Shown in pieces: positions 20,504 through 40,311 of a stretch of 64,000 nucleotides of DNA. Numbering within the stretch: the first letter of the stretch is position 1; each line of letters begins with the position of its first letter. Origin of the DNA: an uncultured Gammaproteobacteria bacterium (GTDB lineage: Bacteria; Pseudomonadota; Gammaproteobacteria; SZUA-140). Made by a program: the position numbers and the translations under genes. Below the pieces are notes generated by a model that saw only the letters and a program-made list of their open reading frames with translations, was not told the origin of the DNA and made no database searches. The stretch is taken from NCBI GenBank assembly GCA_945787155.1, contig CALZHD010000012.1, forward strand, positions 14,402-78,401, given 5' to 3'.

Positions 20504-20523
20504 CTCCTCTTCACCTCATGAGT

Positions 20524-24525: not shown

Positions 24526-24561
24526 TGATTAGATCCCACTCGATTCAGCCCCCAGGCAATA

Positions 24562-25560
24562 TCAATCCCCTTCCTTCCCAATCTGCAAATTATCAGGCCA
24601 CTCACTGTCAGCTTCGAGACGGATATAGGCGACACCGGGTATACCGGTTTTTGCCAACGCTGCATGTGCCTTGAGGAATTCAGCATCAAGTTGAACCTTA
24701 AGGCGGAACATCAGCTTTTCACGTTCGCTACGCGTCTCCACTTCCTTGGGGGTAAATTGTGCCCGCGGGGCAACAAAGAAAACGTTAGCGGCGATAACAA
24801 CATCGGGGATACCATCGAGCACCACGCGGGCTTCGGCACCGAGGCCAACTTTGGCCACATCCTGCATAGGAAGAAAAAGGGTCATATAGATATCGGTAGG
24901 GTCAAGTACCGTCAGCACCTTACCGCCACCGGGCAGTACTTCGCCGGGTTCGGCCAAACGATACAGTACCCGACCGCCAATGGGTGAGCGCAACACGCTG
25001 TCATCAAGCTGGGTTTTTATCAACTCGGCGTTGGCAATCGCCGCTTCGATGGCGGCTTCCGCATTGGAGAGCTGAGCCTGCGCCGCCGCCAATGTCGCCT
25101 TAGCCGTTTCCACCGCGGTCTCATCGCGCTGCAATTGTTCCAACGAGATCGCATCATTCTCGTAGAGCCCCTTAGAGCGCTCCATATCTTTTAGCGTCAG
25201 GGACAATTCACTTTTACGCTGGGCGATCACTGCTATCGCGAAATGCTTCTCCTGTTCAGTACGTCGCACCTCGGCTTGAGAGCGGCGCAGCTGTGCTTCA
25301 AGCTCTCTTGTCTCTATCCGCGCAAGGATCTGATTGAGTTCAACCTGATCACCCTCTTTAACAAACACCTGCTCAAGCCGTCCGCCGAACTTAGCAGTGA
25401 TATCAACCTCGGTGGCTTCGGTACGTCCGTTGCCCGACACAAAACCTTCAGGGAGTTCAGGCTGGCGCATCTGCGCCAACACATAAGCGACAGCCACCAC
25501 AGTGACCACCGCCAAAACAATCAGAATAGTTTTCGATTTCGACGCGATACTTTTCACCAT
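24562..25560 (-). CDS. HlyD-family periplasmic adaptor (YhiI-like)
   Basis: N-terminal TM, SGNGRTEATEVDI, LRSPIGGRV, AQFTPKEVETRSEREKLMFR, GIPGVAY. Confidence 0.9.
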   Translation of the reverse strand: MVKSIASKSKTILIVLAVVTVVAVAYVLAQMRQPELPEGFVSGNGRTEATEVDITAKFGGRLEQVFVKEGDQVELNQILARIETRELEAQLRRSQAEVRRTEQEKHFAIAVIAQRKSELSLTLKDMERSKGLYENDAISLEQLQRDETAVETAKATLAAAQAQLSNAEAAIEAAIANAELIKTQLDDSVLRSPIGGRVLYRLAEPGEVLPGGGKVLTVLDPTDIYMTLFLPMQDVAKVGLGAEARVVLDGIPDVVIAANVFFVAPRAQFTPKEVETRSEREKLMFRLKVQLDAEFLKAHAALAKTGIPGVAYIRLEADSEWPDNLQIGKEGD

Positions 25561-26070
25561 AGACCTTCCTTGATGACTGTGACGGCCTGGAACAATAGTT
25601 ACCGCCCAGAACAATATTCGCCACAACTAAGCTACGTTTTTATACTACACCCCTCAGCACTATAATCACAGCCGATACTGCCAGCACAAACGGATATATT
25701 TTGCATGACAGGAATTTGAACTTAAAACTGATGAAGCGCGCAACCACAACCAGCAAGAGAAATGCGATTACCGATAGCGCGTAGACACAAGTAGTTATAC
25801 AAAAATATGACAGCAGCTAAAACAGGCGCTTCACTAAACACCAGGACATTACCAACGATACCTATCATTGATTAATAATGAAGATAAAAATACAAAAAGA
25901 CTGGGTAGAAAAACAGAAATTCAATATAAAAAGTGCACTGTCAACTTACCGGAACCTCCAGGCTTGTAGTAAAAACCGAATGCCTGACATCATATTCCGA
26001 TAACGAGTTAATAAACTTCGTTTGGGATTTATTACGCTTTGAACTTGTTAAGTCGACAGTGCCAAAATTT

Positions 26071-26131
26071 CAAATAAAAAATCCCCGGCACTTTCGCACC
26101 GAGGGTTTTGGATATGGCACCCCCAAGGGGA
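26071..26131 (-). repeat. Distal att-like direct repeat: degenerate tRNA-Glu 3' end plus terminator
   Basis: CAAATAAAAAATCCCCGGCACTTTCGCACCGAGGGTTTTGGATATGGCACCCCCAAGGGGA matches 37491-37551 at 53 of 61 positions, ungapped (counted by hand). Confidence 0.9.
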
Positions 26132-26329
26132 GACGATAGATGGCCTGTTTTTGTAGCGTACCAGAGACATACACCGAACGTTGCTTCGAGATTCGCACCT
26201 GCTCTACCAATCCTGAGTGGTAAGTTAAAAGAATCACCTGTATCTTCTGAGTAAGTTGTACCGCAGCAATGAGCACTGCTTCGGAGCGTTCACCATCGAA
26301 ATCCACAAGAATGTCACCCATGATAAAAG

Positions 26330-26575
26330 GCATCGACTGCGAGTTACTGTATTTCTTCTCGGCAGCGCCAAACGCAAAATAGATAAAAAATAATGGAAAA
26401 AAGAACGGCCCAACCGAAGCATTCCAAATAAAAATCAACCATGCCCAGCACTGTTCACTCGCTACCAAGTTTGCACATAACCATAGCCCAGAGGAAGCAA
26501 GCACCAATGTGATGCCAGTTTTCTTCCCGCCGTACCAATCCGACAACATAATTGGCGCGATAGAACACCAACGAA
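26330..26575 (-). pseudogene. Degenerate copy of the membrane domain of the adjacent diguanylate cyclase
   Basis: SLVFY.APIMLSDWYGGKKTG resembles SLFYIGPIMLAVWYGGHRQG, and WNASV resembles WNTVV. Frame is broken and there is no catalytic domain. Boundaries approximate. Confidence 0.55.
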
Positions 26576-26579
26576 ATTG

Positions 26580-27436
26580 TCATTTATTATTTGAAGAGAC
26601 AATATGACAAATATTATTTTTGCCCGATTTCTTAACCTTATACATTAAGTCATCTGCCATTTTTACCATTTCACGTATATTCACTAGCGGCTCAAGATAA
26701 GTCACAACACCAATGCTAAATGTAACCGGCCAGCCGTTCGCCCGCATCGCACTCAAGAGGCTGACATGTAGCTTTTCTATCACTTTTTTTGAGGTAGACT
26801 CCTTCATTGAAGGAAAGAAAATAGCAAACTCATCACCGCCCAATCGCGCAGCCATATCAGACTCACGCAAACTCGATTTAAGCACTTCACCGACACATTG
26901 CAATAACTCATCGCCCACCAAATGGCCATTAGTGTCATTAACGTATTTGAAATTATCGAGATCGAGATAGGCGATGGTAAAGATTTCGGGATAACGCCTG
27001 ACTCTCATGCACTCCCTCTCCAGCTGTTCAAGGAAAAAACGGCGATTAACTAAACCGGTAAGCGGATCAGTGGAAGCCAGATTTTCCAGTGTTGTAACCT
27101 TATCTCTGACCGATAGCAACAATTCCATAACCAACATAAAAAAGGCCAGTCTAACAACCGTGTTCCAAACCAACGTTAAGTTATGGGAATACTCCCTTCC
27201 CATAGCTACTTCAGAAATCAACCAAATAGCCGCAGAAAAAAAGATGCCACCAAACCCTGACGATGGCCTCCGTACCAAACCGCCAACATAATCGGCCCAA
27301 TATAAAACAGCGAGAAAGAAAGCTCAGGGCCACTGAAATAGTCAACGATTCCCAGAAGAAATACCGAAAAAAGAAGCACCGACAACCGAAGACGGCTATT
27401 TACTTCTCCAAGATAGTTGTCGATGCCCCTTAGCAT
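26580..27436 (-). pseudogene. Membrane-anchored diguanylate cyclase (GGDEF), frameshifted
   Basis: N-terminal ORF 27218-27436 joins ORF 26580-27278 if one base is added to the A7 run at 27236-27242 (…VASFFSAAIW…). RESD-x5-GGDEF is intact. Confidence 0.8.
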
Positions 27437-27680
27437 TACATAGCCCAGCTCACTTATGCTTAAACAAGAGTATGACTGTTATCCCCCGTAAATAATCAGG
27501 CTTGAAACTAATCCTATAGAACCAACAATTGACACCAGAAATAACGCTACTGTCTGTAGATTTTTTTTGCTCATTTGTTTGCCTCCTCATAGTATCGAGT
27601 TAACACGTTTTAACAGAAGAAATATGAACTATGAGAAACTTTTCAAGTGAAAGATCCCATATTCTTTTATCCGTCGTTCG

Positions 27681-27708
27681 CTTGAAAACCAAACACCCGA
27701 CACTATAT
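27681..27708 (+). promoter_or_regulatory. Sigma32 (RpoH)-like promoter of ibpA
   Basis: CTTGAA-14 nt-CACTATAT versus consensus CTTGAA-N13-17-CCCCATnT, upstream of an sHsp gene. Confidence 0.7.
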
Positions 27709-27765
27709 TTTTTAATGCAGGAATTGGGGCTAATAAGCGCATTACCTGACTACTATTGTTAACTT

Positions 27766-27795
27766 TAATATTGCTTATCAGGAGGATATGTCATG
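27766..27795 (+). promoter_or_regulatory. ROSE-like RNA thermometer hairpin covering the ibpA Shine-Dalgarno
   Basis: TTGCT-TATC-AGGAG (27771-27784) matches the U(U/C)GCU-opposite-AGGA ROSE signature. An upstream hairpin CAGG...CCTG is also present. Confidence 0.6.
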
Positions 27796-28266
27796 ACAAC
27801 TATCGACTTAACACCACTGTATCGCAACACTGTAGGCTTTGATCGTCTGGCCTCTCTCTTGGATAACGCGTTTAGAACGGAACAAAACCCTACCAGCTAC
27901 CCTCCCTACGATATAGATGCGCTGGATGAACATCGCTATGCCATCTCTCTGGCAGTGGCGGGATTTAAACAGAACGAACTGGATATCCAGGTTGAACGCG
28001 GCATGCTCACCGTCAAAGGGAAAAAAGCGGAAGATAAAAGCAAACACAGCTATCTCTACCAGGGTATCACCACCCGCGCTTTTGAACGGAAATTCAATTT
28101 AGCGGATCATGTCGAAATTACTGGTGCCAAGCTTGATAACGGCTTGCTCACCATCGAATTAAAACATGAACTACCTGAGGTGATGAAACCCAAACATATT
28201 GAGATCAACACTGAGGACTCAAATGTACTTGAGCACAAGTCAAATTCTAACGAACAGGCCGCTTAA
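27793..28266 (+). CDS. ibpA: Small heat-shock protein, IbpA family
   Basis: MTTIDLTPLYRNTVGFDRL, SYPPYDI, LAVAGF, YLYQGITTRAFERKFNLADHV, NGLLTI. Confidence 0.93.
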   Translation: MTTIDLTPLYRNTVGFDRLASLLDNAFRTEQNPTSYPPYDIDALDEHRYAISLAVAGFKQNELDIQVERGMLTVKGKKAEDKSKHSYLYQGITTRAFERKFNLADHVEITGAKLDNGLLTIELKHELPEVMKPKHIEINTEDSNVLEHKSNSNEQAA

Positions 28267-28275
28267 TCGACTCTT

Positions 28276-28310
28276 GGAGGAGTGGAGTTAATCATCCCTC
28301 CTCCTTTCTT
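28276..28310 (+). terminator. Hairpin plus T-rich tract between ibpA and the second hsp20
   Basis: GGAGGAG-T-GGA...TCC-CTCCTCC followed by TTTCTT. Confidence 0.5.
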
Positions 28311-28338
28311 CCACAAGTAGAGATAAGGAGTTCAAACC

Positions 28339-28905
28339 ATGGACATGAAAAAACTCAACCCCTGGAACTGGTTTAAGCATGAAGAAAGGCAAGATAAAAA
28401 AGAGACGATTCCCGTAAAACATGGTGAGCACTTGCAGCCCCATCATCCCGTGACTAACATGATGCAATTGCACCGCGAAATTGATCGGCTATTTGATGAT
28501 ACCTTTCGTGGCTTTCCTTCGCTTAGCCACGCCCCGCTATGGAAGCAAATGATGAGTGACGATTTTATGCCCACCTTCCGGGCAAACGTTAACGTTGCAA
28601 GTGATGATGGGCAGTACACCATTACATTAGAAGCGCCGGGCATGGAGCAAAAAGATTTATCGATCGAGCTTAAGAATCACGCCCTGTTTATCAAAGGCAA
28701 TAAACAACAGGAGCAAGAGGAAAAAGATCAACATTTCTACCGGGTTGAACGACACTACGGTTCGTTTGAGCGAGTACTCGCCATTCCTGATGATGGTAAC
28801 GCGGATGAAATTAGCGCTTCGATGAAAAACGGAGTATTAACCCTCACGATTCCTCGCCAGGAGTTACCAAAACCCGATATTAAACAAATAGAAATAAATA
28901 ACTAA
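28339..28905 (+). CDS. Hsp20/alpha-crystallin family protein
   Basis: KKLNPWNWFKHEE, LHREIDRLFD, LEAPGM, FYRVERHYGSFERVLAIP, KNGVLTLTIP. Confidence 0.93.
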   Translation: MDMKKLNPWNWFKHEERQDKKETIPVKHGEHLQPHHPVTNMMQLHREIDRLFDDTFRGFPSLSHAPLWKQMMSDDFMPTFRANVNVASDDGQYTITLEAPGMEQKDLSIELKNHALFIKGNKQQEQEEKDQHFYRVERHYGSFERVLAIPDDGNADEISASMKNGVLTLTIPRQELPKPDIKQIEINN

Positions 28906-28927
28906 GTCAACGACATATTTCTAAGAT

Positions 28928-28958
28928 CAGGCCCCGCCCAGTACGGGGCTTGTTCTTT
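28928..28958 (+). terminator. Intrinsic terminator
   Basis: CAGGCCCCG-(7 nt)-CGGGGCTTG followed by TTCTTT, downstream of hsp20. Confidence 0.65.
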
Positions 28959-29009
28959 ATAGCCTATCAATGCCAATATCAACTTAGGTTTAACGAATGG
29001 GGAATAACG

Positions 29010-29537
29010 ATGACGTCACAAAGCGACAAACAGAGCAATAACAATGACAACCTCACCCAAGGCTACGAAAAGTTACTTAAAAGAGTGGAGAAAACACTCT
29101 CTTCTGTCACCGAGCATACTGAAGATACTTTAAGCCAAGCGCTCGGCAAGGCGAAAGAGAGGGCAATTGAACTGGAGGAGTTAACGCAGGAAGAGGCGGA
29201 TAAAGTACATGAGTTCGTTACCCGCGACCTCTATTCTGCCGGGTTGCATCTGGTAGAAGAAGAGAGAGACGTCGCCGATTGGCTTCGCCTTAACCTGTTA
29301 CTTATTGAAAAAAAATTATTGCACCGGTTCACTGCGCTTTCACAGGCAGCGAAGTTGGAGCTTAATCACCTGAATAAGGCCAAACAAAGATTTGATGAGT
29401 GGCAAACCGGAGAGGTAACGACCATTGGCACACTCTCATGTAAAAGCTGCGGCGAACAGATTCAATTTAAACACACTGGCCGCATCCCCCCCTGCCCGAA
29501 ATGCCATGCAACCCTTTTCGAGCGGGTAAAGAGTTAA
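29010..29537 (+). CDS. Zinc-ribbon-containing protein (DUF1451-like)
   Basis: Helical N-terminus, then WQTGEVTTIGTLSCKSCG...IPPCPKCHATLFER. Confidence 0.8.
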   Translation: MTSQSDKQSNNNDNLTQGYEKLLKRVEKTLSSVTEHTEDTLSQALGKAKERAIELEELTQEEADKVHEFVTRDLYSAGLHLVEEERDVADWLRLNLLLIEKKLLHRFTALSQAAKLELNHLNKAKQRFDEWQTGEVTTIGTLSCKSCGEQIQFKHTGRIPPCPKCHATLFERVKS

Positions 29538-29545
29538 ACTCAATA

Positions 29546-29580
29546 CACAAAGAACCTCGCTTAATGCGGGGTTCTTTGTG
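29546..29580. terminator. Bidirectional terminator between convergent genes
   Basis: CACAAAGAACCTCGC-TTAAT-GCGGGGTTCTTTGTG, 15-bp stem with one wobble/mismatch. Confidence 0.85.
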
Positions 29581-29587
29581 ATAAGCG

Positions 29588-30083
29588 CTATTCGATCTTA
29601 ATGTTGCGCCGCTTGGTTTCTTCCATCTTGGGCAAAGTCAGCTCAAGCAAGCCATCTTTAAATTTAGCCACTGTATCTGAGGTGTTCACGTTTGCAGGCA
29701 AACGTAGGGTGCGGGTAAACTCCCCCGTACTCAGTTCACGATGTTGATATTCACCTTCTTCTTTCACCTCTTCATGCTTGGTTGAGGCTTTGATGGTCAG
29801 TGTATCATCGGAGACGGTGACCTCCAGGTCGTCCTTACTCACACCCGGTAACTCAGCCTTAACCACCACCTCCTTATCCCGATCAATCACATCCACCCTG
29901 GGTGTGCGCCCCTCAAAGGCGGGTTTGAAATCCGGCCAGGGCGAACGAAGACGAAACGGGCTCATCCAACCACCACGATCGAAAAATTGCCCCATCATCT
30001 GCTCCATCTCGTCGAATGGAGACATAACCCGCTGGTTTTGTCTCTTTTGAAACGGACACCTCTTTTTTATCATCGTCAGACAT
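29588..30083 (-). pseudogene. Third Hsp20, frameshifted near the N-terminus
   Basis: AAGGAG RBS precedes ATG 30083 (MSDDDKKEVSVSKETKPA), which is out of frame with the body (RVMSPFDEMEQ...PRVDVID...AELPGV...GEFTRTLRLP...DGLLELTLPK). Shift near 30028-30033. Confidence 0.75.
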
Positions 30084-30149
30084 ATTGTTCTCCTTTTCTA
30101 TTGAATAAGAACTACTCCAAATTAATTATAGCTATCGCCAGGGTTTTAG

Positions 30150-31612
30150 CTACCGCCAACTCAGCACCACGTAGCGCGACATACCTCGATCACTTACCAA
30201 TAGTAGTACACGCTTGTCGCCACTGCGCTTTTTTACCGCCCGCTGGAAGTCTGCAATGGAATTCACGTCCATCTTATTTACCTGAAGAATCACAGTACCG
30301 TTACGTATACCTGCCATGGCGGCGACTGAGCCCGGTTTTACCTCTGTTACGACGACACCCTGGCCCGCCTTGGCATCGAACTGACGCGCCAGGTCAGCTG
30401 TTAGGGTTTGCACTGTCAAACCCAGCTCATCGGCGGTTCCAGTTGACGCACTGGCAGCCACCTGACCGTCTTCCAGGGTCCCTATATTGACGTTAATCAC
30501 CTTGCGTTTTCCGTTACGAATGACCGTAAGATTAGAAGCCGTACCCGGAGGGGTCAGTGCAACACGGTTGCGAAAATCGGCCACCTCGGTGATTTTTTCG
30601 CCCTGATAACGCACAATCAGGTCACCGACCTTCAACCCCGCCTTTTCTGCCGGTGAGTCTTCAGACACCTGGGCCACCAAAATGCCTTTCTTCTCATCAA
30701 TATCAAATGACTCCGCCAATTCGGGCGTCATATTCTGGATCACGATGCCGAGATAACCACGCGTGACTTCGCCACTGTCGATCAGTTGATCAGCAATGTT
30801 TTTAGCCAGATTGACGGGAATAGCGAAACCGACCCCCATGTAACCGCCACTACGGGAGAAGATAGCCGTGTTGATACCGACCACCTCGCCATCCAGGTTC
30901 AGCAAAGGACCGCCGGAGTTACCAGGGTTAATGGCTGCGTCGGTCTGAATAAAATCTTCATAGTCATTGATGCCCAATCCACTACGCCCCTTTGCGCTCA
31001 CAACCCCCACCGTCAGGGTGTGGCTCAAACCGAAGGGATTACCCACGGCCACGACCCATTCGCCGACTTCGAGATTGGCGGAGTTGCCCATGGGCAGTGC
31101 CAGATGCTCGCTATCCTCTATTTCCAGTATGGCGATATCGGATTTAGGGTCGGCGCCGGTTATCTTGGCCTCTAACTCCCGCCCATCCTGGAAGGTAACG
31201 CGAATCTTATCTGCGCCTTCCACCACATGATTATTGGTCAGGATGTAACTGGTATCCGACAACATCCCCTTATCAATCTTAAAGACAAAACCTGAGCCTT
31301 GCCCCATCACCCGGCGTTCCGGCTGATGCTGACGTTGATTGGGAAAACCGGGGAAACGGTCGCCAAAGAAACGTTTAATAAATCATCACCAAAGGGGGAC
31401 TGAAATGGCGAGAAAGGAATGCCCTTCTGTACGCTCTCCACCTGAATAAACACCACCGAAGGTGAGACCTCCCTGGCAACCGAGGCAAAGGCCTTGCTGG
31501 TCTGACGTAGGTTGGCGATCCCCCCATCCTCGACAGCGTGAAGAGGCGCGCTCAACAAAGGAAAACACAACAAAAAAGGAAGAAAAAACAATAATTTCCT
31601 ATGCGACATCAC
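30150..31612 (-). pseudogene. degP: DegP/DegQ serine endoprotease with two PDZ domains, frameshifted
   Basis: Signal peptide and VSPSVVFI in ORF 31307-31612; GQGSGF, TNNHV, SDIA and GNSGG in ORF 30150-31310. One added base near 31374-31383 restores …DDLFKRFFGDRFPG…. Confidence 0.85.
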
Positions 31613-31727
31613 AATAAACTCCTAATCCGTAGCCAGTCTAAAGTTACACAAAATTTTTTAATTTTTCCGACAGCTGCTTTGTTTTTATTGCAGTTAAAAA
31701 GTTCCAACTACCTCGATAATTTTATTC

Positions 31728-31754
31728 ATAGGGATTATTTTCAGGTATTTCAAC
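31728..31754 (-). promoter_or_regulatory. Sigma32-like promoter of degP
   Basis: Minus strand GTTGAA-15 nt-CCCTAT. Confidence 0.55.
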
Positions 31755-31815
31755 GGGAATAATTTAGCCTGAACTTTTCTGTTTTAGGCCGGTCATTAAT
31801 TTCGAAAAGATAGGG

Positions 31816-31839
31816 GTTGAAAACAAAAAAATCGCCCAT
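31816..31839 (+). promoter_or_regulatory. Sigma32-like promoter of the Gld-like ABC operon
   Basis: GTTGAA-12 nt-GCCCAT. The spacer is one short of consensus but contains an A7 run. Confidence 0.5.
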
Positions 31840-32005
31840 AACTTTCATCAAACTTACATTCTGTTCAATGGAGGGGGCTGTTCCCCGGACACATATAAAG
31901 GAGATTTGAACGCCATGTTAACGCTCTATCCCTCAGTTTTTCTCGGTCGTATACAACGCCTCTATAAATCTTAATTTATTCATTGTTTTTGATTGGAGGT
32001 GCTCC

Positions 32006-32191
32006 ATGCGTCCATTTGATAACAAGCCTGGCCAGCCATTCCAAAAGGCGGGCACGACTGCGTCCGGCAGCCTGGCCGTCGCACAATTTTTAAGCCACTC
32101 AGTCCAATATTTCAATCTACCGGCAGAGGGCTTAACTCAACTCAAACATAGTCAAAAAAAGATCAACAATCCAAGGAGTAATCATGATTAA
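32006..32191 (+). CDS. Candidate 61-aa protein of unknown function
   Basis: GGAGG RBS 6 nt before the ATG; stop overlaps the start of the ABC ATPase. No family recognised. Confidence 0.35.
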   Translation: MRPFDNKPGQPFQKAGTTASGSLAVAQFLSHSVQYFNLPAEGLTQLKHSQKKINNPRSNHD

Positions 32192-33128
32192 GATTGACAA
32201 CCTTAAACGTGCCTACGGTGACTTTATGGCCGTCGATAACGTCAGCTTTTCCATTGAGAAAGGCGAGATCGTCGGCCTACTGGGTCACAATGGTGCAGGT
32301 AAAACCACCATTATGAAGATGCTTAGCGGCTACCTGGAACCCAGCGCTGGAAGCATTGAAATTGATGAGATGGATATCGCCAAACAACGTAGTGCAGTGC
32401 AACAGCGCATCGGTTATCTGCCTGAGTCATTACCCATCTATCCTGAAATGAGTGTGGCGGACTATCTCGACTACGCCGCCAGACTCAAAGGCCTCAGCGG
32501 TGATGAAGCAAGAAATGAAATTCGCCGTGCCGTTAAGGCCACCGATATCAGCGTAAAACTGTTAGCCCCCATTGCCACACTGTCTCGGGGATACAAGCAA
32601 CGCGTTGGCGTCGCACAGGCCATATTGGGCACTCCTAAACTACTCATTCTTGACGAACCCACCAATGGACTTGATCCCACCCAAACACAGCTGATGCGCG
32701 AGTTAATCAAAGAGATTGCCAAGGATGCCACAGTCATCCTCTCCACTCATATCATGCAAGAGGTGGATGCACTGTGTGACCGGGTATTGATTATGCGTGC
32801 GGGTGAGCTGGCAGTAGATGCTAAGTTAGCCACGCTGCGTCAAAGCAAAAACTTGCTACTTCATACCAACCTTAGCGATATAAAACGATTAGCCAGTCAA
32901 CCTGGCATTGAAAAGGTCGAAGCAATAGACGGACATGATAACTACTGCTATCGCTTGCAGTTAAAAGAGGTGTTAGATGCTAGCGGTGTTGCTAATACCT
33001 TGGCAAAAACCTTGATCGAAAATGGTCACGATATTTATGAATTAAAACGCGAACAACGTGACCTGGAGAGCGTCTTCCGCGAAGTCAATGAACAATCGAA
33101 TCAGCAGGAGGTGAGCCATGCCGCTTGA
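32184..33128 (+). CDS. ABC transporter ATP-binding protein (GldA-like)
   Basis: GHNGAGKTT, LSRGYKQRVG, LILDEPTNGLDP, STH. Confidence 0.92.
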   Translation: MIKIDNLKRAYGDFMAVDNVSFSIEKGEIVGLLGHNGAGKTTIMKMLSGYLEPSAGSIEIDEMDIAKQRSAVQQRIGYLPESLPIYPEMSVADYLDYAARLKGLSGDEARNEIRRAVKATDISVKLLAPIATLSRGYKQRVGVAQAILGTPKLLILDEPTNGLDPTQTQLMRELIKEIAKDATVILSTHIMQEVDALCDRVLIMRAGELAVDAKLATLRQSKNLLLHTNLSDIKRLASQPGIEKVEAIDGHDNYCYRLQLKEVLDASGVANTLAKTLIENGHDIYELKREQRDLESVFREVNEQSNQQEVSHAA

Positions 33129-36000
33129 TACCACCATGCGACGCATCACGGCCAAAGAACTGACACTATTTTTCAGCTCGCCGGTCGCCTACCTATTTCT
33201 TGGCACCTTTGCGGCAATCACGCTGTTTATCTTCTTCTGGGGCGAAACCTTCTTTGCCCGAAATATTGCCGATGTGCGCCCGCTGTTTGAGTGGATGCCG
33301 GTTCTACTGATTTTTCTCACCAGTGCGCTGACCATGCGTATGTGGAGTGAAGAGCGTCGTAGCGGCACACTGGAACATGTACTCACTCAACCGCTAGCCA
33401 TCTGGCGATTTGTGGTTGCCAAGTTTCTCGCCTGCTTTGCCCTATTGGCGATTGCATTGATTGTTACCTTGCCGCTGCCTATTACCGTTTCCTTAATTGG
33501 CGATCTGGATTGGGGGCCGGTGTGGAGCGGTTATCTCGCCACGCTACTATTGGGTGCGGCCTATCTCGCTGTTGGACTGTTTGTGTCTGCCCGGAGTGAC
33601 AATCAAATCGTCAGTTTGATTAGCGCCACCGCCGTGTGTGGATTGTTGTATCTAGTCGGTGCGCCTGCGATTACTGATTTTTTTGGCAATCAGGCCGGTG
33701 AGTGGCTACGTTCATTAGGGACTGGCGCACGCTTTGATGACATCACCCGTGGCGTGATTGATCTGCGTGATTTTGTTTATTACCTCAGCCTCATCGCCAT
33801 CTTCCTTAGCCTAAACACCTTCAGCCTGGAGAAAGAGCGCTGGGCTGCAACGGGTGACAAAGGCCATCATCGCAACTGGCGTATTGGTAGCACCTTGCTG
33901 ATCGCAAATGCCATTGCCATCAACCTGTGGCTTGGGCAGATCAATGTTCTGCGTATGGATACCACTGAAGGCAAGCTCTACTCCATCTCTGATGCTACGC
34001 GAGGCTACCTCAATCAACTCCAGGAACCGCTGTTGATTCGCGGTTATTTCAGCAGCAAAACCCACCCTCTACTCTCGCCTCTAGTACCCCAGGTGCGTAA
34101 TCTGATTAGTGAATATGAGGTTGCGGGTAATGGACATGTGCGGATTGAATTTATCGACCCCATGAATGATCCGGAGCAAGAGGAGCTAGCCAACCAGAAA
34201 TACGGTATTCAACCCGTCCCTTTTCAGGTGGCAGACCGTTACCAGGCCTCGCTGGTAAACTCTTACTTCAACATACTGGTGGAGTACGGTGACGAGTTCC
34301 AGGTCTTAGGCTTCCGTGACCTAATCGAGGTTAAGTCGCAAAGCGAAGCAGATATCGATGTTCAACTACGTAACCCGGAGTACGACATCACCCGCGCGGT
34401 CAAGAAAGTACTGTTGGCCTATCAATCTGGTGGCAATTTATTTGATACCGTAAAAGGTGATCTGGATTTTACAGCGTATATTTCCGCCGATGAAAAACTG
34501 CCTCAACAGCTGGCAGACTTCAAGAATGAAGTTAACAAAGTAGTGGGTGAAGTCAAGGCGCAAGCCAATGGCCGCCTGAACGTCACGTTTATTGAACCCG
34601 AATCTAATGGCGGGCAAGTGGCACAACAGATTCTCTCCGACTACGGTTTTCAACCCATGGTCGCCAGCCTGTTTGATGCCAATCAATTTTATTTCTACCT
34701 AACCCTCAAACAAGGTGAGCAAGTGGTGCAGATCCCATTGGGGGACTTCAGCGCAGCTAACTTTGAATTGGCCCTGGAATCGGGCATCAAACGTTTTGCC
34801 AGCGGCTTCACCAAAACGGTCGCCTTTGTTGCGCCCACAGTCGATCCTCAAATGGCGCGCTTTGGAATGGGCGGTCCGCAGTTCAGTCAGCTGGAACAGG
34901 TATTGGGTGCCGACCTCAACGTGAAACGAGAAGATCTTAGTGATGGTCGTATCGACAGCGAAGCCGATGTATTGTTGTTAGCCGCGCCTAAGAACCTTGA
35001 CGAGAAACAGCTCTTTGCCGTGGATCAATTTCTGATGCGCGGCGGCACGGTGATTGCCGCCACATCACCTTTCAGCGCTGATCTGAGCCGTAATAACCTC
35101 AATATGCAGCCCCATAGCAGCGGTCTGGAGCAATGGATGCAGCACCATGGCCTGAAGATTGATGATCAGCTACTGTTAGACTCACAAAACAGCGCCTTTC
35201 CGCTACCAGTGACGCGTCAGGCGGGTGCCTTCCGCTTTCAGGAGATGCGGATGGTTGACTACCCTTACTTTGCTGATCTACGTGGTGAGGGTTTAAATCA
35301 GACCAATCCTATCACCAGCGGCCTTAACCAGTTGAGCATGACCTGGGCATCTCCCATTGTCGTGAACAGTGAAAAAAACAGGGCGCGTCAAATTACCGAG
35401 CTATTGCACAGTTCGAATCAGGCATGACTTTCCAGTTCGCTTAACGTCACACCGAAAATTGACAGCACAGGTCGTAGTACTTTCCCTCCATCAGGAAATA
35501 AAGATCGCTATCTACTTGGCGCAATTACGCAAGGTCGCTTTAGCTCCTACTTTTCAGGTCAAGCGTCACCTTTACTAGCCAGTGATACGGAAGCGACAGT
35601 CGACACTAACAATGAAACGGACATCAATAAGGAGAATATCATTAGCAGTGTCATCGAACACTCACCTGAATCGGCTCGCCTTATACTGTTCGCCTCCAAT
35701 GACTTCCTCAATGACCAGGTCATACAGTTAGCGGGAGCCAACACAGGTAGTCAGTACCTTAATAGCCTGCAACTGATGGCCAATACGGTTGACTGGTCTC
35801 TAGAAGAGCAAGGTCTGCTCAGCATCCGATCCCGAGGGCACTTTAATCGCACCCTGCCCCCTATGGAACAGGATCAACAACTCTACTGGGAAAGCGGTAA
35901 CTATGTCGTAGCCGCTTCAATGCTAACGGCATTGGCAGTGTTGGTGAGTTATCGACGCAAACATAAAGCCAAACGTTATTTTGAAGAATTGAACGCTTAA
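33118..36000 (+). pseudogene. GldF-GldG-like permease/auxiliary fusion, interrupted by an in-frame TGA
   Basis: KELTLFFSSPVAY, MRMWSEERRSGTLE and RMDTTEGKLYSIS motifs. After TGA 35425-35427 the same frame stays open to TAA 36000 (LSSSLNV...ILFASNDFL...ANTVDWSLEEQGLLSIRSRG...TM). Confidence 0.85.
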
Positions 36001-36013
36001 GGGAGGCAAATTA

Positions 36014-37003
36014 ATGAATCGTTTTAATCAATTCCTGGCTGTTACCCTGTCAGTGCAAATCGTCATTGCAGGGGGGATCTATTTCGACAACCAGGCATCA
36101 ACAGCAGATCAAACACAGATGGCCCTACTCAGCACTGAAAAAAGCCAGATCAACCAGATAACCATTGAAGACAGCGATGGCAAACAGACCGTGTTGAGTA
36201 AAATAGAAGGAAAGTGGCTGCTGCCTGACTATCACCAGCTGCCAGCAAATCAGAGCAAGGTGCTCGATATGCTCAATACACTTGAGACCACCAAAAGTGG
36301 CTGGCCTGTGGCCACCACTGAATCCGGTCGTGAACGTTTTGAAGTCGCTGATAAAAACTTTCAAAAGCGAGTGGTGTTAAGCCAGGATGATGAAAAACTT
36401 CAAACACTCTACCTTGGAACATCACCCGGCTTTCGCCAACTGCATGTGCGCCGAGCTAATGAAGAGGAAGCCTATGCAGTCAAACTCAACAGCCACGACT
36501 TTCCCTCCGAAAACAATAACTGGCTGGATCAAACGCTGCTGCAACCCAAAGGAGATATCACCAGCTTGGAAGGGCCAGACTACGCCTTTATCAAGCAAGC
36601 GGGGCAATGGCAACCGAGTGCGGAAGAAGGTAAGGCTGTGAGTGATGAGATAGAAAAGATCACTAACACCCTCACCCATATCAACATTCAAGGCGCAGAG
36701 GAAAAAACAGAGCATGAAGCCGCCTACCAACTCACCGTAAAAGCGGCAGGCGATACACTCAACTATCATTTTTTCAAAGACGATGAAAACTATTATCTCA
36801 GTCGAGATGATTATGCTCAGGCTTTTAAAATCAACCAGTCGGATTACGATAAAATTACGGGGCAAACCGCAATGCAGTTAATCAAACCTGTCGAGGCTGA
36901 AGAGCTGAGCACCATCGTTGACAGTGAAAATAATGAGGCAGGAAATCAGAATCTAAACAAATCTAGCTCAGAACAGGAGACAACAAAAAACAAAAACAGT
37001 TAA
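36014..37003 (+). CDS. DUF4340 domain protein
   Basis: N-terminal TM, WLLPDYHQLPAN, RFEVA, LYLGTSPGFRQLHVR, NWLDQTLL. Usual partner of Gld-like ABC operons. Confidence 0.82.
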   Translation: MNRFNQFLAVTLSVQIVIAGGIYFDNQASTADQTQMALLSTEKSQINQITIEDSDGKQTVLSKIEGKWLLPDYHQLPANQSKVLDMLNTLETTKSGWPVATTESGRERFEVADKNFQKRVVLSQDDEKLQTLYLGTSPGFRQLHVRRANEEEAYAVKLNSHDFPSENNNWLDQTLLQPKGDITSLEGPDYAFIKQAGQWQPSAEEGKAVSDEIEKITNTLTHINIQGAEEKTEHEAAYQLTVKAAGDTLNYHFFKDDENYYLSRDDYAQAFKINQSDYDKITGQTAMQLIKPVEAEELSTIVDSENNEAGNQNLNKSSSEQETTKNKNS

Positions 37004-37026
37004 ATCAAAAATGTTTAGTTTCACCC

Positions 37027-37051
37027 GCTGGGGCGTATTTTCCGCCCCAGC
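37027..37051 (+). terminator. GC-rich hairpin after the DUF4340 gene
   Basis: GCTGGGGCG-(7 nt)-CGCCCCAGC; weak U-tract. Confidence 0.55.
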
Positions 37052-37328
37052 TATTCAAGTAAACGTAGCGCCTATCCCCCGAGGTAAATGCTTCGCACTG
37101 CACTAGGACCATGACGTAATAGCAAGCGGTTTCTATTTGTAGAAAAGCGCTTAAGTGCTTCTCTTAAGCAGACTGTATTCCCAATATAGATATCCATCTA
37201 AAATAGTGACGTTGATTTATCCAACACCTCAGTATAGATAGTTGATCACCTTCCTTAGTTGTAGCATTCTACCCGGCGGGTTCGATTACCCCTGACTCAC
37301 TAAACACCACCCTTCAAACTCCAGACAT

Positions 37329-37354
37329 AAAAAACCGAGCTCAAACAATCGGTT
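37329..37354 (-). terminator. Terminator following the internal tRNA-end copy
   Basis: Minus strand AACCGA-(10 nt)-TCGGTT-TTTT. Confidence 0.55.
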
Positions 37355-37363
37355 ATCTTATAA

Positions 37364-37460
37364 TGGCGTCCCCAAGGGGATTGACTCAGGCCATCCATGG
37401 CCTTCGCCCTTCGGGCAGCCTTCGGCTGTCCAAATTTGCTTCCCGCAAATTTGTCGAACC
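37364..37460 (-). repeat. Copy of the tRNA-Glu 3' end with a 72-nt four-hairpin insertion in the T-loop
   Basis: TGGCGTCCCCAAGGGGATT (37364-37382) is identical to 37535-37553; then a 72-nt insert; then CGAACC (37455-37460) resumes the T-loop. Confidence 0.85.
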
Positions 37461-37495
37461 TAAGGGGGGCGAGATAACCCTTAAAAACAACAAAT

Positions 37496-37529
37496 AAAAA
37501 ACCCCCGGCGCTATCGCACCGGGGGTTTT
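37496..37529 (-). terminator. Intrinsic terminator of the tRNA transcript
   Basis: Minus strand AAAACCCCCGG-(10 nt)-CCGGGGGTTTTT. Confidence 0.85.
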
Positions 37530-37534
37530 GTATT

Positions 37535-37611
37535 TGGCGTCCCCAAGGGGATTCGAACCCCTGTTACCGCCGTGAAAGGGCGGTGTCCTAGGCCGTCTAG
37601 ACGATGGGGAC
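37535..37611 (-). tRNA. tRNA-Glu (TTC)
   Basis: GTCCCCATCGTCTAGACGGCCTAGGACACCGCCCTTTCACGGCGGTAACAGGGGTTCGAATCCCCTTGGGGACGCCA, with encoded CCA. Confidence 0.97.
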
Positions 37612-37662: not shown

Positions 37663-37738
37663 TGGTGGAGCTAGGCGGGATCGAACCGCCGACCTCTACA
37701 CTGCCAGTGTAGCGCTCTCCCAGCTGAGCTATAGCCCC
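37663..37738 (-). tRNA. tRNA-Ala (GGC)
   Basis: GGGGCTATAGCTCAGCTGGGAGAGCGCTACACTGGCAGTGTAGAGGTCGGCGGTTCGATCCCGCCTAGCTCCACCA. Confidence 0.97.
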
Positions 37739-39110
37739 TCAAAAGCGAAGGCACACGCTCACGGCCGATCAGGAACAGTGTCTTATCAATCGATGGTGAA
37801 ACGGTACCACCGGTGACGGCCACACGCAGCGGCTGCGCTAGTTTTCCGAGCTTCAGCTCCTGCGCTTCTGCAGTCGTCTTAACTGTCTCGTGAGTACTTT
37901 CTGGTGTCCACTCATCGAGGGCCGCAAGATTATCCCGTAACGCACTCAATCCCGCCCGAATCGCTGGCTTAAGCTGCTTGGCAACGGCCTTCTCATCATA
38001 GATCTCGATATCTTTGTAGAAATAAATGCTCGCTTCGGCCATCTCGACCAGGGTCTTGCAGCGCTCCTGCTGCACCTTGACCAACTCAATCAGGTCCGGT
38101 CCCTTCGTTGGATCGATATCAAGGTTACCGAGGTGCCAGCTGAGGTGATGTGCGATATGCTCCGGTGGGCTCTCTTTAATATAGTGCTGATTGAGCCACA
38201 GCAGCTTGCCAGTGTTAAAGGCAGAGGCGGAGCTGTTGATATCTTCGACATCAAACAGATTAATCATCTCATCAACACTAAAGATCTCCTGATCACCATG
38301 CGACCAACCCAGTCGCACCAGATAGTTGAGCAGCGCCTCCGGCAGGTAACCCTCTTCACGATACTGCATCACGCTGACCGCCCCGTGACGCTTGGAGAGA
38401 CGTTTACCATCATCACCGAGAATCATCGGCACATGGGCATAGATCGGTGCAAAGCCACCGAGTGCCTCAAGAATATTGAGCTGACGTGGGGTATTGTTGA
38501 GATGGTCATCACCACGAATCACGTGCGACATTTGCATATCAAGATCATCAACAACAACGGTTAAGTTATAGGTCGGACTACCATCAGAACGCGCGATGAT
38601 GAGATCATCCAGCTCACTGTTATTAAATACCACACGGCCACGCACCAGATCTTTTACCGTCACTGACCCTTCAGTCGGATTACGAAAACGCACTACCGGA
38701 CTACCACCCTCAGCAGGCGGTGCTGTCAGGTCTCGACAACAACCGTCATAACGTGGCTTCTGCTTGTTAGCCATCTGGTCGGCACGCAGCGTCTCCAGTC
38801 GCTCTTTAGAGCAGTAGCAGTAATAGGCCTTATTTTCATCAAGCAACTTATGGATCACCTCCTGGTAGCGATCCATCCGTTCGGTCTGACGGAAAGGGCC
38901 TTCATCATATTCAAGCCCCAACCAGGTCATTCCCTCAAGAATAGCGTTAACTGATTCCGCCGTGGAACGTTCAAGATCAGTATCTTCGATACGCAGAACA
39001 AAGCGTCCGCCATGCTTGCGTGCATACAACCAGGAATAGAGTGCGGTGCGGGCCCCACCGACATGCAAGTAACCTGTCGGGCTGGGGGCAAAACGTGTAC
39101 GTGTAGTCAT
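37671..39110 (-). CDS. gltX: Glutamate--tRNA ligase; 3' end aberrant, frame runs into tRNA-Ala
   Basis: [46 protein letters not shown]. Start at ATG 39110. Confidence 0.95.
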
Positions 39111-40303: not shown

Positions 40304-40311
40304 CTGGATAA

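What the first reader, a model, noticed from the sequence alone, without database searches (positions are those of the whole stretch)
26071..37551. Integrase-less heat-shock island at tRNA-Glu, delimited by 61-bp direct repeats
Seen: 26071-26131 and 37491-37551 match at 53 of 61 nt, each comprising the tRNA 3' end and its terminator. The distal copy has a weakened stem. Cargo is three sHsps, a zinc-ribbon protein, DegP, a Gld-like ABC system and a GGDEF; no recombinase ORF lies between the repeats. Established: tRNA 3' ends are standard integration sites; the known mobile heat-tolerance locus (LHR/tLST) carries ClpG and other genes not present here. Inference: an old, immobilised stress-tolerance island of a different composition.
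Basis: partly seen in the sequence, partly recalled or inferred. Interest (0 to 1): 0.7.

Follow-up and report, generated by a model that had tools for sequence, protein, structure and literature searches.

The report
Integrase-less stress-gene island at tRNA-Glu
An 11-kb stretch carrying heat-shock and envelope-stress genes sits behind a tRNA-Glu gene between leftover integration-site repeats but has no recombinase, so it is most likely a decayed genomic island of a known kind, and its cargo is an ordinary conserved gene cluster of related marine bacteria.

Summary
The repeat is real: 53/61 as reported, 60/73 when extended, with no comparable match in 100 shuffles. There is also a third copy. 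A perfect 19-nt copy of the tRNA-Glu 3' end lies at 37364-37382, 152 bp from the tRNA.

The island therefore runs 26115-37382, inside a three-site array: tRNA, a 152-bp remnant, copy 2, the island, copy 3 and a native-like terminator. No tested ORF in the 64-kb window has an integrase domain.

**For integration and transfer**
- The closest genome (GltX 94%) has a different, defence-type island at the same tRNA-Glu.
- The terminator next to copy 3 matches that genome's terminator best.
- In one steel metagenome the cargo is 91-96% identical, while the rest of the window is only about 80-88%.
- Homology there stops exactly at copy 2.
- The inner arm of copy 3 recurs in three different contigs of that metagenome.

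**Against a special mobile heat locus**
- The same gene order recurs in at least ten related metagenomic loci.
- None of those loci has a tRNA-Glu or the 19-nt fragment, and none was scanned for integrases.
- GC content is unremarkable.
- No empty site was found.

It is not tLST, because ClpG and most tLST modules are absent.

Verdict: a decayed island of the cis-mobilizable-element (CIME) type, of moderate-to-low interest.

The parts
37535..37611 (-). tRNA-Glu(UUC), the target gene. Its last 19 nt (37535-37553) are att copy 1. It lies downstream of gltX (about 37740-39110) and tRNA-Ala(GGC) (37663-37738).
   Evidence: ARAGORN; Rfam tRNA, 60.1 bits.
37498..37529 (-). Intrinsic terminator directly after the tRNA (14-bp stem plus T-run). 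It is part of the 73-nt repeat.
   Evidence: alignment A4.
37383..37534 (.). 152-bp segment between the tRNA and att copy 2. It has no ORF of note and is read as the remnant of a second element in a tandem array.
   Evidence: Its only internal similarity is the terminator.
37364..37382 (-). att copy 2, a 19/19 perfect copy of the tRNA-Glu 3' end (T-loop AAT to CCA). This is the true tRNA-proximal boundary of the island.
   Evidence: The homologous contig in metagenome X1 stops matching exactly here and continues with unrelated sequence.
37004..37363 (.). Non-coding right arm of the island, with a weak hairpin plus T-run next to copy 2. It is about 92% conserved in X1.
   Evidence: the repeat finder family D11.
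36014..37003 (+). DUF4340 protein, the last gene of the ABC operon.
   Evidence: Pfam PF14238, 1.5e-20. It follows the GldFG-like gene in every related locus.
33118..35994 (+). GldF-like ABC-2 permease fused to a GldG-like auxiliary domain (about 958 aa). It is interrupted by an in-frame TGA at 35425-35427 that replaces a conserved Trp.
   Evidence: X1 has TGG at this codon.
32184..33128 (+). GldA-like ABC ATPase.
   Evidence: TIGR03522 scores 281 bits, below the 402.6-bit cut-off.
31816..31842 (+). Sigma-32-like promoter (GTTGAAA...GCCCATAAC) upstream of a conserved small ORF (32006-32191) and the ABC operon.
   Evidence: Conserved in all five aligned loci; L081 reads CTTGAAAACC-N-TCCCTAT. 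This is a motif match only.
31699..31705 (-). Sigma-E-like -35 element (GGAACTT on the minus strand) upstream of DegP.
   Evidence: Conserved in four of five aligned loci. This is a motif match only.
30150..31612 (-). DegP/DegQ-family serine protease, split into two frames near 31340-31427.
   Evidence: The homologues in L088, L084 and L081 are intact at 487-489 aa.
29588..30073 (-). sHsp3 (HSP20).
29010..29537 (+). DUF1451 zinc-ribbon protein.
   Evidence: Pfam PF07295, 4.6e-41; NF008261.
28339..28905 (+). sHsp2 (HSP20, 188 aa). It is 47.7% identical over its full length to the sHsp20 next to clpK in tLST on Klebsiella plasmids.
27793..28266 (+). sHsp1, IbpA/IbpB-like HSP20.
27681..27709 (+). 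Sigma-32-like promoter upstream of sHsp1 (CTTGAAA...CACTATAT).
   Evidence: L081 has CTTGAA...CCCATAT at the same place.
26580..27278 (-). Small membrane-anchored GGDEF diguanylate cyclase. It is specific to the window's version of the island.
   Evidence: It is not part of the block shared with L081, L084 or L088.
26175..26387 (-). Remnant (the last 65 or so codons) of a roughly 1,165-aa AAA_27/SMC_N ATPase, lying inside the spurious ORF 26070-26549. It is a scar of an internal deletion.
   Evidence: Residues 55-125 of the ORF match positions about 1090-1155 of proteins about 1165 aa long.
26137..26181 (.). Inner arm next to att copy 3. Three different contigs of metagenome X1 share it, with different flanks on both sides.
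26115..26136 (-). att copy 3, a degenerate tRNA-Glu 3' end (18/22). It shows no similarity to the 5' part of the tRNA.
   Evidence: In the shuffle test 709 of 1000 shuffles reached the observed score.
26064..26114 (-). Native-like tRNA-Glu terminator, displaced to the far end of the island (9-bp stem at 26083-26104).
   Evidence: It matches the L001 terminator at 34/38, against 30/38 for the window's tRNA-adjacent terminator.

Best explanation
The segment 26115-37382 is a decayed genomic island integrated site-specifically at the 3' end (T-loop to CCA) of tRNA-Glu(UUC). The host is an uncultured marine gammaproteobacterium whose nearest genome is Thiotrichaceae bacterium NORP103.

**Structure.** It is one unit of a tandem array: tRNA (att1), a 152-bp remnant, att2, the island, att3, and the original terminator. 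It has kept its att sites but lost its integrase. That is the definition of a cis-mobilizable element (CIME).

**Integration (inferred).** A tyrosine-type integrase recombined an element-borne copy of the tRNA end with the tRNA T-loop region. This displaced the native tRNA end and terminator to position 26.1 kb. Internal deletions then removed the recombination genes. The truncated AAA_27 ATPase is one visible scar of such a deletion. A second element later integrated at the tRNA and was reduced to 152 bp.

**Cargo.** The cargo is a conserved stress cluster:
- two sHsp genes and a YbeL-like gene behind a sigma-32-like promoter;
- sHsp3 and DegP behind a sigma-E-like promoter;
- a GldA/GldFG-like ABC system plus DUF4340 behind a second conserved sigma-32-like promoter.

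In related bacteria this cluster is ordinary chromosomal DNA. Here it travelled between lineages as part of the island. Its presumed role is handling misfolded cytoplasmic and envelope proteins under heat or envelope stress.

**Shown versus inferred.** Shown: the repeats, the gene content, the synteny elsewhere, and the discordance in identity. Inferred: the integrase mechanism, the order of events, and the promoter function.
For: - **Three copies.** There are three copies of the same 19-22 nt tRNA-Glu 3' end, each followed by a hairpin and T-run. Copy 3 has no trace of the rest of the tRNA.
- **Displaced terminator.** The terminator at copy 3 matches the orthologous L001 terminator at 34/38, better than the tRNA-adjacent one at 30/38. 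That is what a displaced native attB side should look like.
- **Different island in the nearest genome.** L001 (GltX 94% aa) carries a defence island at the same tRNA-Glu. L039 carries type I restriction-modification genes plus a PIN-domain gene.
- **Absent from close relatives.** No NCBI-derived homologue exceeds 61% (DUF1451) or 56% (DUF4340), although close NCBI relatives of the host exist.
- **Identity discordance.** In metagenome X1 the cargo 28882-37381 is 91-96% identical at depth 8.5-10. No contig reaches 95% on the other 40 kb examined, and the long pieces there are about 80-88%.
- **Sharp boundary.** X1 homology ends at 37381, inside att2, and continues as unrelated sequence.
- **Shared arm.** The att3 core plus inner arm (26114-26181) occurs in three X1 contigs with different flanks.
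- **Deletion scar.** The AAA_27 ATPase is reduced to its last 65 or so codons.
- **No integrase.** No integrase domain was found in any tested ORF of the window.
- **Promoter motifs.** Sigma-32-like and sigma-E-like motifs are conserved across 72-92% identical loci.
Against: - No empty tRNA-Glu-to-left-flank allele was found. The left flank (HlyD/RbbA operon) has different upstream neighbours in every relative, and homology with the closest one ends at 25747, not at the repeat.
- The cargo order is a widespread chromosomal neighbourhood with no tRNA-Glu and no att fragment. That includes a 761-kb contig. Those loci were not scanned for integrases.
- GC content is 0.472 against 0.499, which is not distinctive.
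- Copy 3 differs from the tRNA by an AC-to-GT change in the acceptor segment. A freshly displaced native end would not show that.
- The repeat extends about 50 nt beyond the tRNA, further than a minimal att core.
- Linking X1 contigs to a single organism rests on similar depth only.
- The left boundary has no comparator.
- Frameshifts also occur outside the island, in the OEP gene at about 19523. Gene damage is therefore not specific to the island and may be assembly error.
Confidence: 0.6

Rival explanations
1. The stress cluster is ancestral chromosomal DNA that always lay downstream of tRNA-Glu in this lineage. The tRNA-end copies are scars left by other elements that integrated and were later lost on either side of it. 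On this view the cargo itself was never mobile.
For: The same gene order is a conserved, non-island neighbourhood in many related loci. GC content is ordinary. No empty site was found. The 152-bp unit shows that other elements did come and go at this tRNA.
Against: The closest genome by GltX has no such cluster at the site. No close NCBI homologue of DUF1451 or DUF4340 exists. The cargo is 91-96% identical in X1 while the surrounding genome is about 80-88%. X1 homology ends exactly at att2. The native-like terminator lies beyond the cargo, not next to the tRNA.
Confidence: 0.2
2. The repeats come from a non-site-specific duplication, or from a second tRNA-Glu gene that was later truncated. They have nothing to do with integration.
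For: The long repeat includes the terminator, about 50 nt beyond the tRNA. A segmental duplication would copy that.
Against: Two independent extra copies both stop at the same place in the tRNA, 19-22 nt from the 3' end in the T-loop. There is no residual similarity to the tRNA 5' part, with 709 of 1000 shuffles reaching the observed score. Neither ARAGORN nor Rfam detects a pseudo-tRNA. The same core plus arm recurs in three contexts in X1.
Confidence: 0.07
3. The island is still mobile. It is moved in trans or in cis by an integrase encoded elsewhere in the genome, or by an incoming element of the same att family, and it is currently spreading among steel-biofilm gammaproteobacteria.
For: att2 is a perfect 19/19 copy. 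Both arms are conserved in X1, and the att3 arm occurs in three contexts there. The cargo is 91-96% identical across genomes whose core is about 80-88% identical.
Against: No integrase is found in 64 kb. att3 has 4 mismatches in 22 nt. No reads from the source sample were available to look for circles or empty sites.
Confidence: 0.13

Closest known systems
Cis-mobilizable elements (CIMEs) and tandem accretion arrays of integrative elements, for example ICESt1/CIME in Streptococcus thermophilus. The definition is quoted in PMC5704250 and cites Pavlovic 2004 and Bellanger 2011.
   Same: The element is flanked by attL and attR repeats that include the 3' end of the target gene. It has no integrase or transfer genes. 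It sits in tandem with the remnant of another element and so shares an internal att site. It shows scars of internal deletion.
   Different: The target is tRNA-Glu in a marine gammaproteobacterium. No ICE or IME relative and no cognate integrase has been identified. No remnant of a conjugation module is visible. Mobilisation is untested.
Classical tRNA-linked genomic islands and P4-type integrase elements that recombine in the T-loop to 3' end of tRNA genes. The T-loop sublocation comes from my own knowledge of Williams 2002, which I did not read here.
   Same: The identity block runs from the T-loop to CCA. The native 3' end and terminator are displaced to the distal end. The same tRNA carries different islands in relatives: a phosphorothioation-type defence island in L001 and type I restriction-modification genes in L039.
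   Different: There is no integrase next to the tRNA-proximal end. Base composition is not atypical. The repeat extends about 50 nt beyond the tRNA.
[quoted passage not shown]
   Same: It is a horizontally moved cluster of proteostasis genes with several sHsps, a DegP and a diguanylate cyclase. sHsp2 is 47.7% identical over its full length to the sHsp20 next to clpK. A sister locus (L081) also has a PsiE that is 55% identical to PsiE-GI, plus an M48/HtpX-like protease.
   Different: The tLST core dna(orf1)-shsp20-clpG is incomplete, since ClpG/ClpK and orf1 are missing. There is no YfdX/HdeD module and no Trx, KefB or FtsH. DegP shows no special relationship to DegP-GI. GC is 47% against about 61%. 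The unit is bounded by tRNA att repeats rather than by IS or Tn7. It carries an ABC/DUF4340 operon and a DUF1451 gene that tLST lacks.
ibpAB-type sigma-32 heat-shock operons and sigma-E-controlled degP of Enterobacteria.
   Same: sHsp1 is IbpA/IbpB-like (1e-46 and 1e-40, below the equivalog cut-offs). CTTGAAA...CCCATAT-type motifs lie upstream of sHsp1 and of the ABC operon. A GGAACTT motif lies upstream of DegP.
   Different: All these genes are clustered together with a GldA/F/G-like ABC system. The regulation is inferred from motifs only.

Membership tests
tRNA-integrated genomic island (tyrosine-integrase type) | Lies directly at the 3' end of a tRNA gene | tested here: met
   tRNA-Glu is at 37535-37611. 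The island begins 152 bp beyond it, at att copy 2.
tRNA-integrated genomic island (tyrosine-integrase type) | Bounded by direct repeats that contain the tRNA 3' end | tested here: met
   Copies lie at 37535-37553, 37364-37382 (19/19) and 26115-26136 (18/22). No comparable match occurred in 100 shuffles.
tRNA-integrated genomic island (tyrosine-integrase type) | Encodes its own integrase, usually next to the tRNA-proximal end | tested here: not met
   No recombinase Pfam domain was found in the island ORFs or in 20 other ORFs of the window. The 360-bp and 152-bp junction segments hold only ORFs of 44 aa or less.
tRNA-integrated genomic island (tyrosine-integrase type) | Absent from the same site in close relatives (empty or differently occupied site) | tested here: inconclusive
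   L001 (GltX 94%) has a different island at the same tRNA-Glu. No truly empty site joined to the window's left flank was found.
tRNA-integrated genomic island (tyrosine-integrase type) | Evidence of horizontal transfer | tested here: met
   The cargo is 91-96% identical in X1, against about 80-88% for the rest of the window. GC alone is uninformative.
Cis-mobilizable element (CIME) | Retains attL and attR | tested here: met
   att2 and att3 flank the cargo.
Cis-mobilizable element (CIME) | [quoted passage not shown] | tested here: met
Cis-mobilizable element (CIME) | Derived by decay from an ICE or IME | tested here: inconclusive
   An internal deletion is shown by the remnant of the AAA_27 ATPase. 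No remnant of a conjugation or mobilisation gene was found.
Cis-mobilizable element (CIME) | Can be excised or transferred together with an accreted element that has the cognate integrase | not testable with these tools
   No reads of the source population were available. The three-site tandem layout is compatible with this feature.
tLST / LHR | Core dna(orf1, MerR-like)-shsp20-clpG/clpK | tested here: not met
   Only an sHsp20 homologue is present, at 47.7% identity. No Clp/AAA+ disaggregase or orf1 is among the island ORFs. The core definition is from PMC8290217.
tLST / LHR | Cell-envelope module (YfdX1, YfdX2, HdeD) and oxidative module (Trx, KefB, PsiE, M48, DegP) | tested here: not met
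   Only a DegP is present. Its best plasmid matches are generic DegQ genes at 44-48%, not tLST DegP. PsiE and M48 occur in the sister locus L081, not in the window.
tLST / LHR | GC of about 61% and flanking IS or Tn7 | tested here: not met
   GC is 0.472, and no transposase lies in the window's island.
Gliding-motility ABC transporter GldA/GldF/GldG (Bacteroidota equivalogs) | Scores above the NCBIfam equivalog cut-offs | tested here: not met
   GldA scores 281 against a cut-off of 402.6. GldF scores 177 against 288.5. GldG scores 99.9 against 389.85. These are homologues, not equivalogs.
Sigma-32 heat-shock regulon member | CTTGAAA-N13-15-CCCCATNT promoter; heat induction | tested here: inconclusive
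   Conserved motif matches lie upstream of sHsp1 and of the ABC operon. No expression data exist.

The most novel reading that the evidence does not exclude
The two conserved arms belong to a still-circulating family of elements that target the tRNA-Glu T-loop in marine steel- and sediment-associated gammaproteobacteria. These elements move an integrase-less, sigma-32-controlled proteostasis-plus-ABC cluster between lineages, in cis or in trans. This cluster family has an sHsp20 48% identical to the tLST sHsp20 and, in sister loci, a PsiE 55% identical to PsiE-GI, an M48 protease and a DegP. It would then be an environmental relative of the modules from which the clinically and food-relevant tLST was assembled. 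The origin of tLST is still unknown (PMC8290217).
Probability: 0.12. Interest if true: 0.6.

Novelty: new member of a known kind. Interest (0 to 1): 0.35.

Why it matters
If the reading is right, this is a clean natural example in an uncultured marine gammaproteobacterium. An ordinary chromosomal stress cluster became part of a tRNA-linked island and was passed between lineages. It persists as an att-flanked, integrase-less unit that an incoming element could move again.

It also flags two further points. First, a gene neighbourhood links small heat-shock proteins and DegP to a GldA/F/G-like ABC system and DUF4340 under apparent sigma-32 control, and I found no description of it. That gives a testable hint about the function of those poorly understood ABC and DUF4340 genes. 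Second, the cluster shows distant homology to several tLST components.

None of this changes current concepts. The architecture is a known kind and the cargo genes are common.

Tried and rejected
**Searches that returned nothing**
- An exact look-up of sHsp1 and of the window's DUF1451 protein found neither on record.
- A metagenome scan with DUF4340 found no relatives.
- Four exact-pattern scans of viral contigs for the att arms gave no hits. A phage origin therefore has no support.
- The sequencing-run search for the host's gltX region found no run. Only one steel metagenome holds part of the island. Reads of the source population could not be checked for circle or empty-site junctions.
- blastn-short of the 152-bp, 360-bp and left-junction segments against all loci found no dispersed repeat.

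**Empty-site search**
- The search through HlyD orthologues showed different upstream genes in every relative and no tRNA.

**Ideas tested and rejected or left undecided**
- A cryptic or pseudo-tRNA at copy 3, or in the 37.0-37.5 kb spacer, is rejected. ARAGORN and Rfam find nothing, and the alignment score is at shuffle level.
- GC and GC3 are not informative as an island signal.
- A special tie between this DegP and tLST DegP is rejected.
- Taking the broken genes as proof of an old, decaying island is not accepted. A gene outside the island (OEP, about 19523) is frameshifted too, so assembly error cannot be excluded.

Full report
**1. Observation**

tRNA-Glu(UUC) lies at 37535-37611 and tRNA-Ala(GGC) at 37663-37738. 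Both are on the minus strand, directly downstream of gltX.

The reported repeat is exact: 26071-26131 and 37491-37551 agree at 53 of 61 positions. Ungapped extension gives 26064-26136 against 37484-37556, 60 of 73. A degenerate 39-nt terminator pattern built from the two copies found only those two copies, with none in 100 shuffles. The 19-nt tRNA-end pattern found two sites against 0.04 expected.

The tRNA-side copy is the last part of the tRNA plus a terminator with a 14-bp stem. The far copy is a degenerate tRNA end (18/22) plus a terminator with a 9-bp stem.

Position 37364-37382 is 19/19 identical to the tRNA 3' end (AATCCCCTTGGGGACGCCA on the tRNA strand). It is followed by a weaker hairpin and T-run.

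Read on the minus strand, the order is:
- tRNA (att1);
- terminator;
- a 152-bp segment;
- att2;
- the 11.2-kb island;
- att3;
- terminator.

Copy 3 is not a pseudo-tRNA. Upstream of its 22 nt there is no similarity to the tRNA 5' part, since 709 of 1000 shuffles score at least as well. Rfam and ARAGORN find nothing. Both extra copies stop at the same point, in the T-loop.

**2. Gene content**

Pfam and NCBIfam give the following genes.

| Coordinates | Strand | Gene |
|---|---|---|
| 26580-27278 | - | small GGDEF protein |
| 27793-28266 | + | IbpA-like sHsp1 |
| 28339-28905 | + | sHsp2 |
| 29010-29537 | + | DUF1451 zinc-ribbon protein |
| 29588-30073 | - | sHsp3 |
| 30150-31612 | - | Do-family protease (DegP/DegQ type) |
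| 32184-33128 | + | GldA-like ATPase |
| 33118-35994 | + | GldF-GldG-like fusion |
| 36014-37003 | + | DUF4340 |

The Gld matches are all below the equivalog cut-offs.

Two of these genes are damaged:
- DegP changes frame near 31340-31427, whereas its homologues are intact at 487-489 aa.
- GldFG has a single TGG-to-TGA change at a conserved Trp (35425-35427). The related strain in run X1 has TGG.

A gene outside the island, an OEP gene at about 19523, is also frameshifted. The damage is therefore not specific to the island and could be assembly error.

The ORF at 26070-26549 is spurious. Its C-terminus is the translated repeat. Its residues 55-125 match the last 65 or so residues of AAA_27/SMC_N ATPases about 1,165 aa long. 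More than 3 kb of that gene must have been deleted inside the island, next to att3.

No recombinase domain occurs in the island. None occurs in the short ORFs of the junctions or in 20 further ORFs on both sides.

**3. Relatives at the tRNA-Glu site**

A genome scan with GltX gave 80 loci. The closest are L001 (Thiotrichaceae bacterium NORP103, 94% aa, 82% nt) and L002 (91% aa).

L001 has gltX, tRNA-Ala and tRNA-Glu followed by a similar terminator. Beyond that it carries DUF4007, a large ATPase, a PAPS-reductase-like gene, a DndB-like gene and a GmrSD-like gene. This is a phosphorothioation-type defence island. It has none of the window's cargo and none of its left flank. L039 has type I restriction-modification genes and a PIN-domain gene after its tRNA-Glu. 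The site is therefore a variable hotspot.

The 38 nt after CCA compare as follows:

| Pair | Matches |
|---|---|
| copy 3 and L001 | 34/38 |
| copy 3 and the window's tRNA-adjacent terminator | 32/38 |
| L001 and the window's tRNA-adjacent terminator | 30/38 |

The first 17 nt after CCA are identical between copy 3 and L001. This fits copy 3 plus its terminator being the displaced native attB side. The margin is small.

No empty site was found. HlyD orthologues at 77-88% nt have other genes upstream, and homology with the closest one stops at 25747.

**4. The cargo elsewhere**

Homologues of DUF1451 and DUF4340 led to several loci with the same order.

| Locus | Identity to window | Content |
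|---|---|---|
| L081/L082/L100 | 72-73% nt, proteins 68-87% | PsiE, sHsp, sHsp, DUF1451, M48 protease, sHsp fragment, MerR, DnaJ, DegP, ABC ATPase, GldFG (960 aa), DUF4340 |
| L084 | 85% nt | sHsp1 up to the first 25 codons of the ABC ATPase, then diverges |
| L088 (run X1) | 92% nt | begins to match at 28882 and lacks sHsp1 and sHsp2 at that point |

L081 is flanked by IS3-type fragments and an HsdM gene.

More distant loci keep DegP divergent from the ABC-GldFG-DUF4340 operon. These include L093, L095, L097, L101, L104, L108, L114 and L121. They often also have an sHsp, PsiE or DUF1451. Their chromosomal surroundings differ, and L101 lies on a 761-kb contig.

None of these loci has a tRNA-Glu or the 19-nt fragment.

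DUF1451 also occurs alone, next to mfd and rapA, in L085.

The cluster is therefore a conserved neighbourhood in this group of gammaproteobacteria, not a dedicated mobile locus. Its link to tRNA-Glu is peculiar to the window and X1 lineage.

**5. Evidence for transfer**

Only one public run holds near-identical words: X1, a steel metagenome. The identity of its contigs to the window differs sharply by region.

| Window region | X1 contigs | Identity |
|---|---|---|
| 28882-37381 (cargo) | depth 8.5-10 | 91-96% |
| 2-22 kb | long pieces at depth 9-11 | about 80-88%; none reaches 95% |
| 41-61 kb | long pieces at depth 9-11 | about 80-88%; none reaches 95% |
| gltX | essentially uncovered at 85% or more | - |

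The X1 contig that covers the right arm matches up to 37381, which is 18 nt into att2. It then continues with GCGACCTTA. That is neither the window's sequence nor the tRNA.

Three different X1 contigs share 41-62 nt covering the att3 core plus the inner arm (26114-26181). Their flanks differ on both sides, and one of them has an intact TGGCGT core.

Both island ends therefore behave as conserved, portable arms.

NCBI-derived proteins include no DUF1451 homologue above 61% and no DUF4340 homologue above 56%. Yet NCBI MAGs with 91-94% GltX or 93% HlyD exist. This suggests that the host's closest sequenced relatives lack the cluster, although MAGs are incomplete.

GC content is 0.472 against 0.499, which is uninformative. 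It would fit exchange among related lineages.

**6. Function**

Aligning the DegP-ABC intergenic region of five loci (72-92% nt identity) shows three conserved features:
- a sigma-32-like promoter (TTGAAA...CCCATA; in L081 CTTGAAAACC...TCCCTAT), which lies ahead of a small ORF and the ABC operon;
- a GGAACTT (sigma-E -35 type) motif on the DegP strand in four of the five loci;
- a second GAACTTTTC motif on the plus strand.

Upstream of sHsp1, CTTGAA...C(A/C)C(T/A)ATAT is shared with L081.

These are motif matches, not expression data. They make the whole block, ABC system included, a plausible heat and envelope-stress unit.

**7. Comparison with known systems**

[quoted passage not shown] Such elements are often found in tandem with other elements after accretion (PMC5704250). 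Derivation from an ICE or IME, and actual mobilisation, remain untested.

It is not tLST. The tLST core is dna(orf1)-shsp20-clpG, its GC is about 61%, and it is flanked by IS or Tn7 (PMC8290217). Here only an sHsp20 homologue is present, at 47.7% identity to the one beside clpK. DegP has no special affinity to the tLST DegP.

Sister locus L081 adds a PsiE that is 55% identical to PsiE-GI, and an M48 protease. This is a distant compositional echo of tLST and nothing more.

**8. Verdict**

The island reading is partly supported.

The att architecture, the differently occupied site in the nearest genome, the identity discordance and the sharp homology end at att2 all favour a site-specifically integrated, horizontally acquired unit that now lacks an integrase. 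I put this at about 0.6.

- 'Old' is not shown.
- The boundary and the number of att sites needed correction.
- The cargo is a common conserved cluster rather than a new kind of mobile heat-tolerance locus.

This is a new member of a known kind. Interest is 0.35.

Noticed in passing
window 37740-37760 (gltX 3' end / tRNA-Ala junction): Compared with L001 and L002, the window lacks 96 nt. The missing stretch holds the last 19 or so codons and the stop of gltX, plus a TTGACA-N17-TAAAGT-type promoter in front of tRNA-Ala. As a result the gltX ORF reads into the tRNA-Ala gene (stop at 37671). This is either a real deletion, which would make the tRNAs depend on gltX transcription, or an assembly fault.
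   Followed up: partly
window 18255-20503: The outer-membrane factor gene of the HlyD/RbbA-like efflux operon is split into two frames at about 19523, whereas it is intact at 782 aa in L090. Together with DegP and GldFG, that makes three broken genes in 64 kb. The cause is either an error-prone assembly or real pseudogenisation.
   Followed up: partly
window 39200-54400: About 15 kb to the right of gltX is missing from L001 and only partly present in L002. It holds an MshE-like T2SSE ATPase with a receiver domain, several histidine kinases, HD-GYP/HDOD proteins and DUF6901. This is a second variable region flanking the same gltX-tRNA locus.
   Followed up: partly
window 31855-31915 and 31916-32191: Between the sigma-32-like promoter and the ABC operon, all five aligned loci keep three features: a GGGG-N-CCCCGG hairpin, a strong AAGGAGA ribosome-binding site with a very short ORF, and a second small ORF of 52-61 aa. 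This could be a leader or thermosensor-type control element. That idea is speculative.
   Followed up: no
L081 1-8400 and 19890-20520: In the 58-kb JGI contig the homologous cluster is bracketed by IS3-family transposase fragments, a 178-aa GroEL fragment, a CHASE-PAS-GGDEF-EAL protein and an HsdM gene. That region also looks island-like, but with IS rather than tRNA boundaries. Its PsiE is 55% identical to tLST PsiE-GI.
   Followed up: partly
L001 12335-20835: The nearest genome carries DUF4007, a 1,130-aa ATPase, a PAPS-reductase-like gene, a DndB-like gene and a GmrSD-like gene directly after its tRNA-Glu. This is an Ssp/Dnd-type phosphorothioation defence island by domain content.
   Followed up: partly
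window 19000-25600: The HlyD-RbbA-ABC2-OEP operon left of the island has a clearly higher GC (0.54-0.60) than the rest of the window (about 0.50). Its HlyD is 82-85% identical to proteins in many different metagenomes. It may itself have been acquired horizontally.
   Followed up: no
window 26185-26215 (minus strand): The sequence CTCAGGATTGGTAGAGCAGG resembles a tRNA D-arm, but no tRNA model scores here. It may be another tRNA scrap or a chance match.
   Followed up: partly
window 2385-3920: A phage-tail-sheath-like gene lies here, indicating a contractile injection system or a prophage remnant. A chaperone-usher pilus cluster (PapD, usher, SCPU) lies at 12-18 kb.
   Followed up: no
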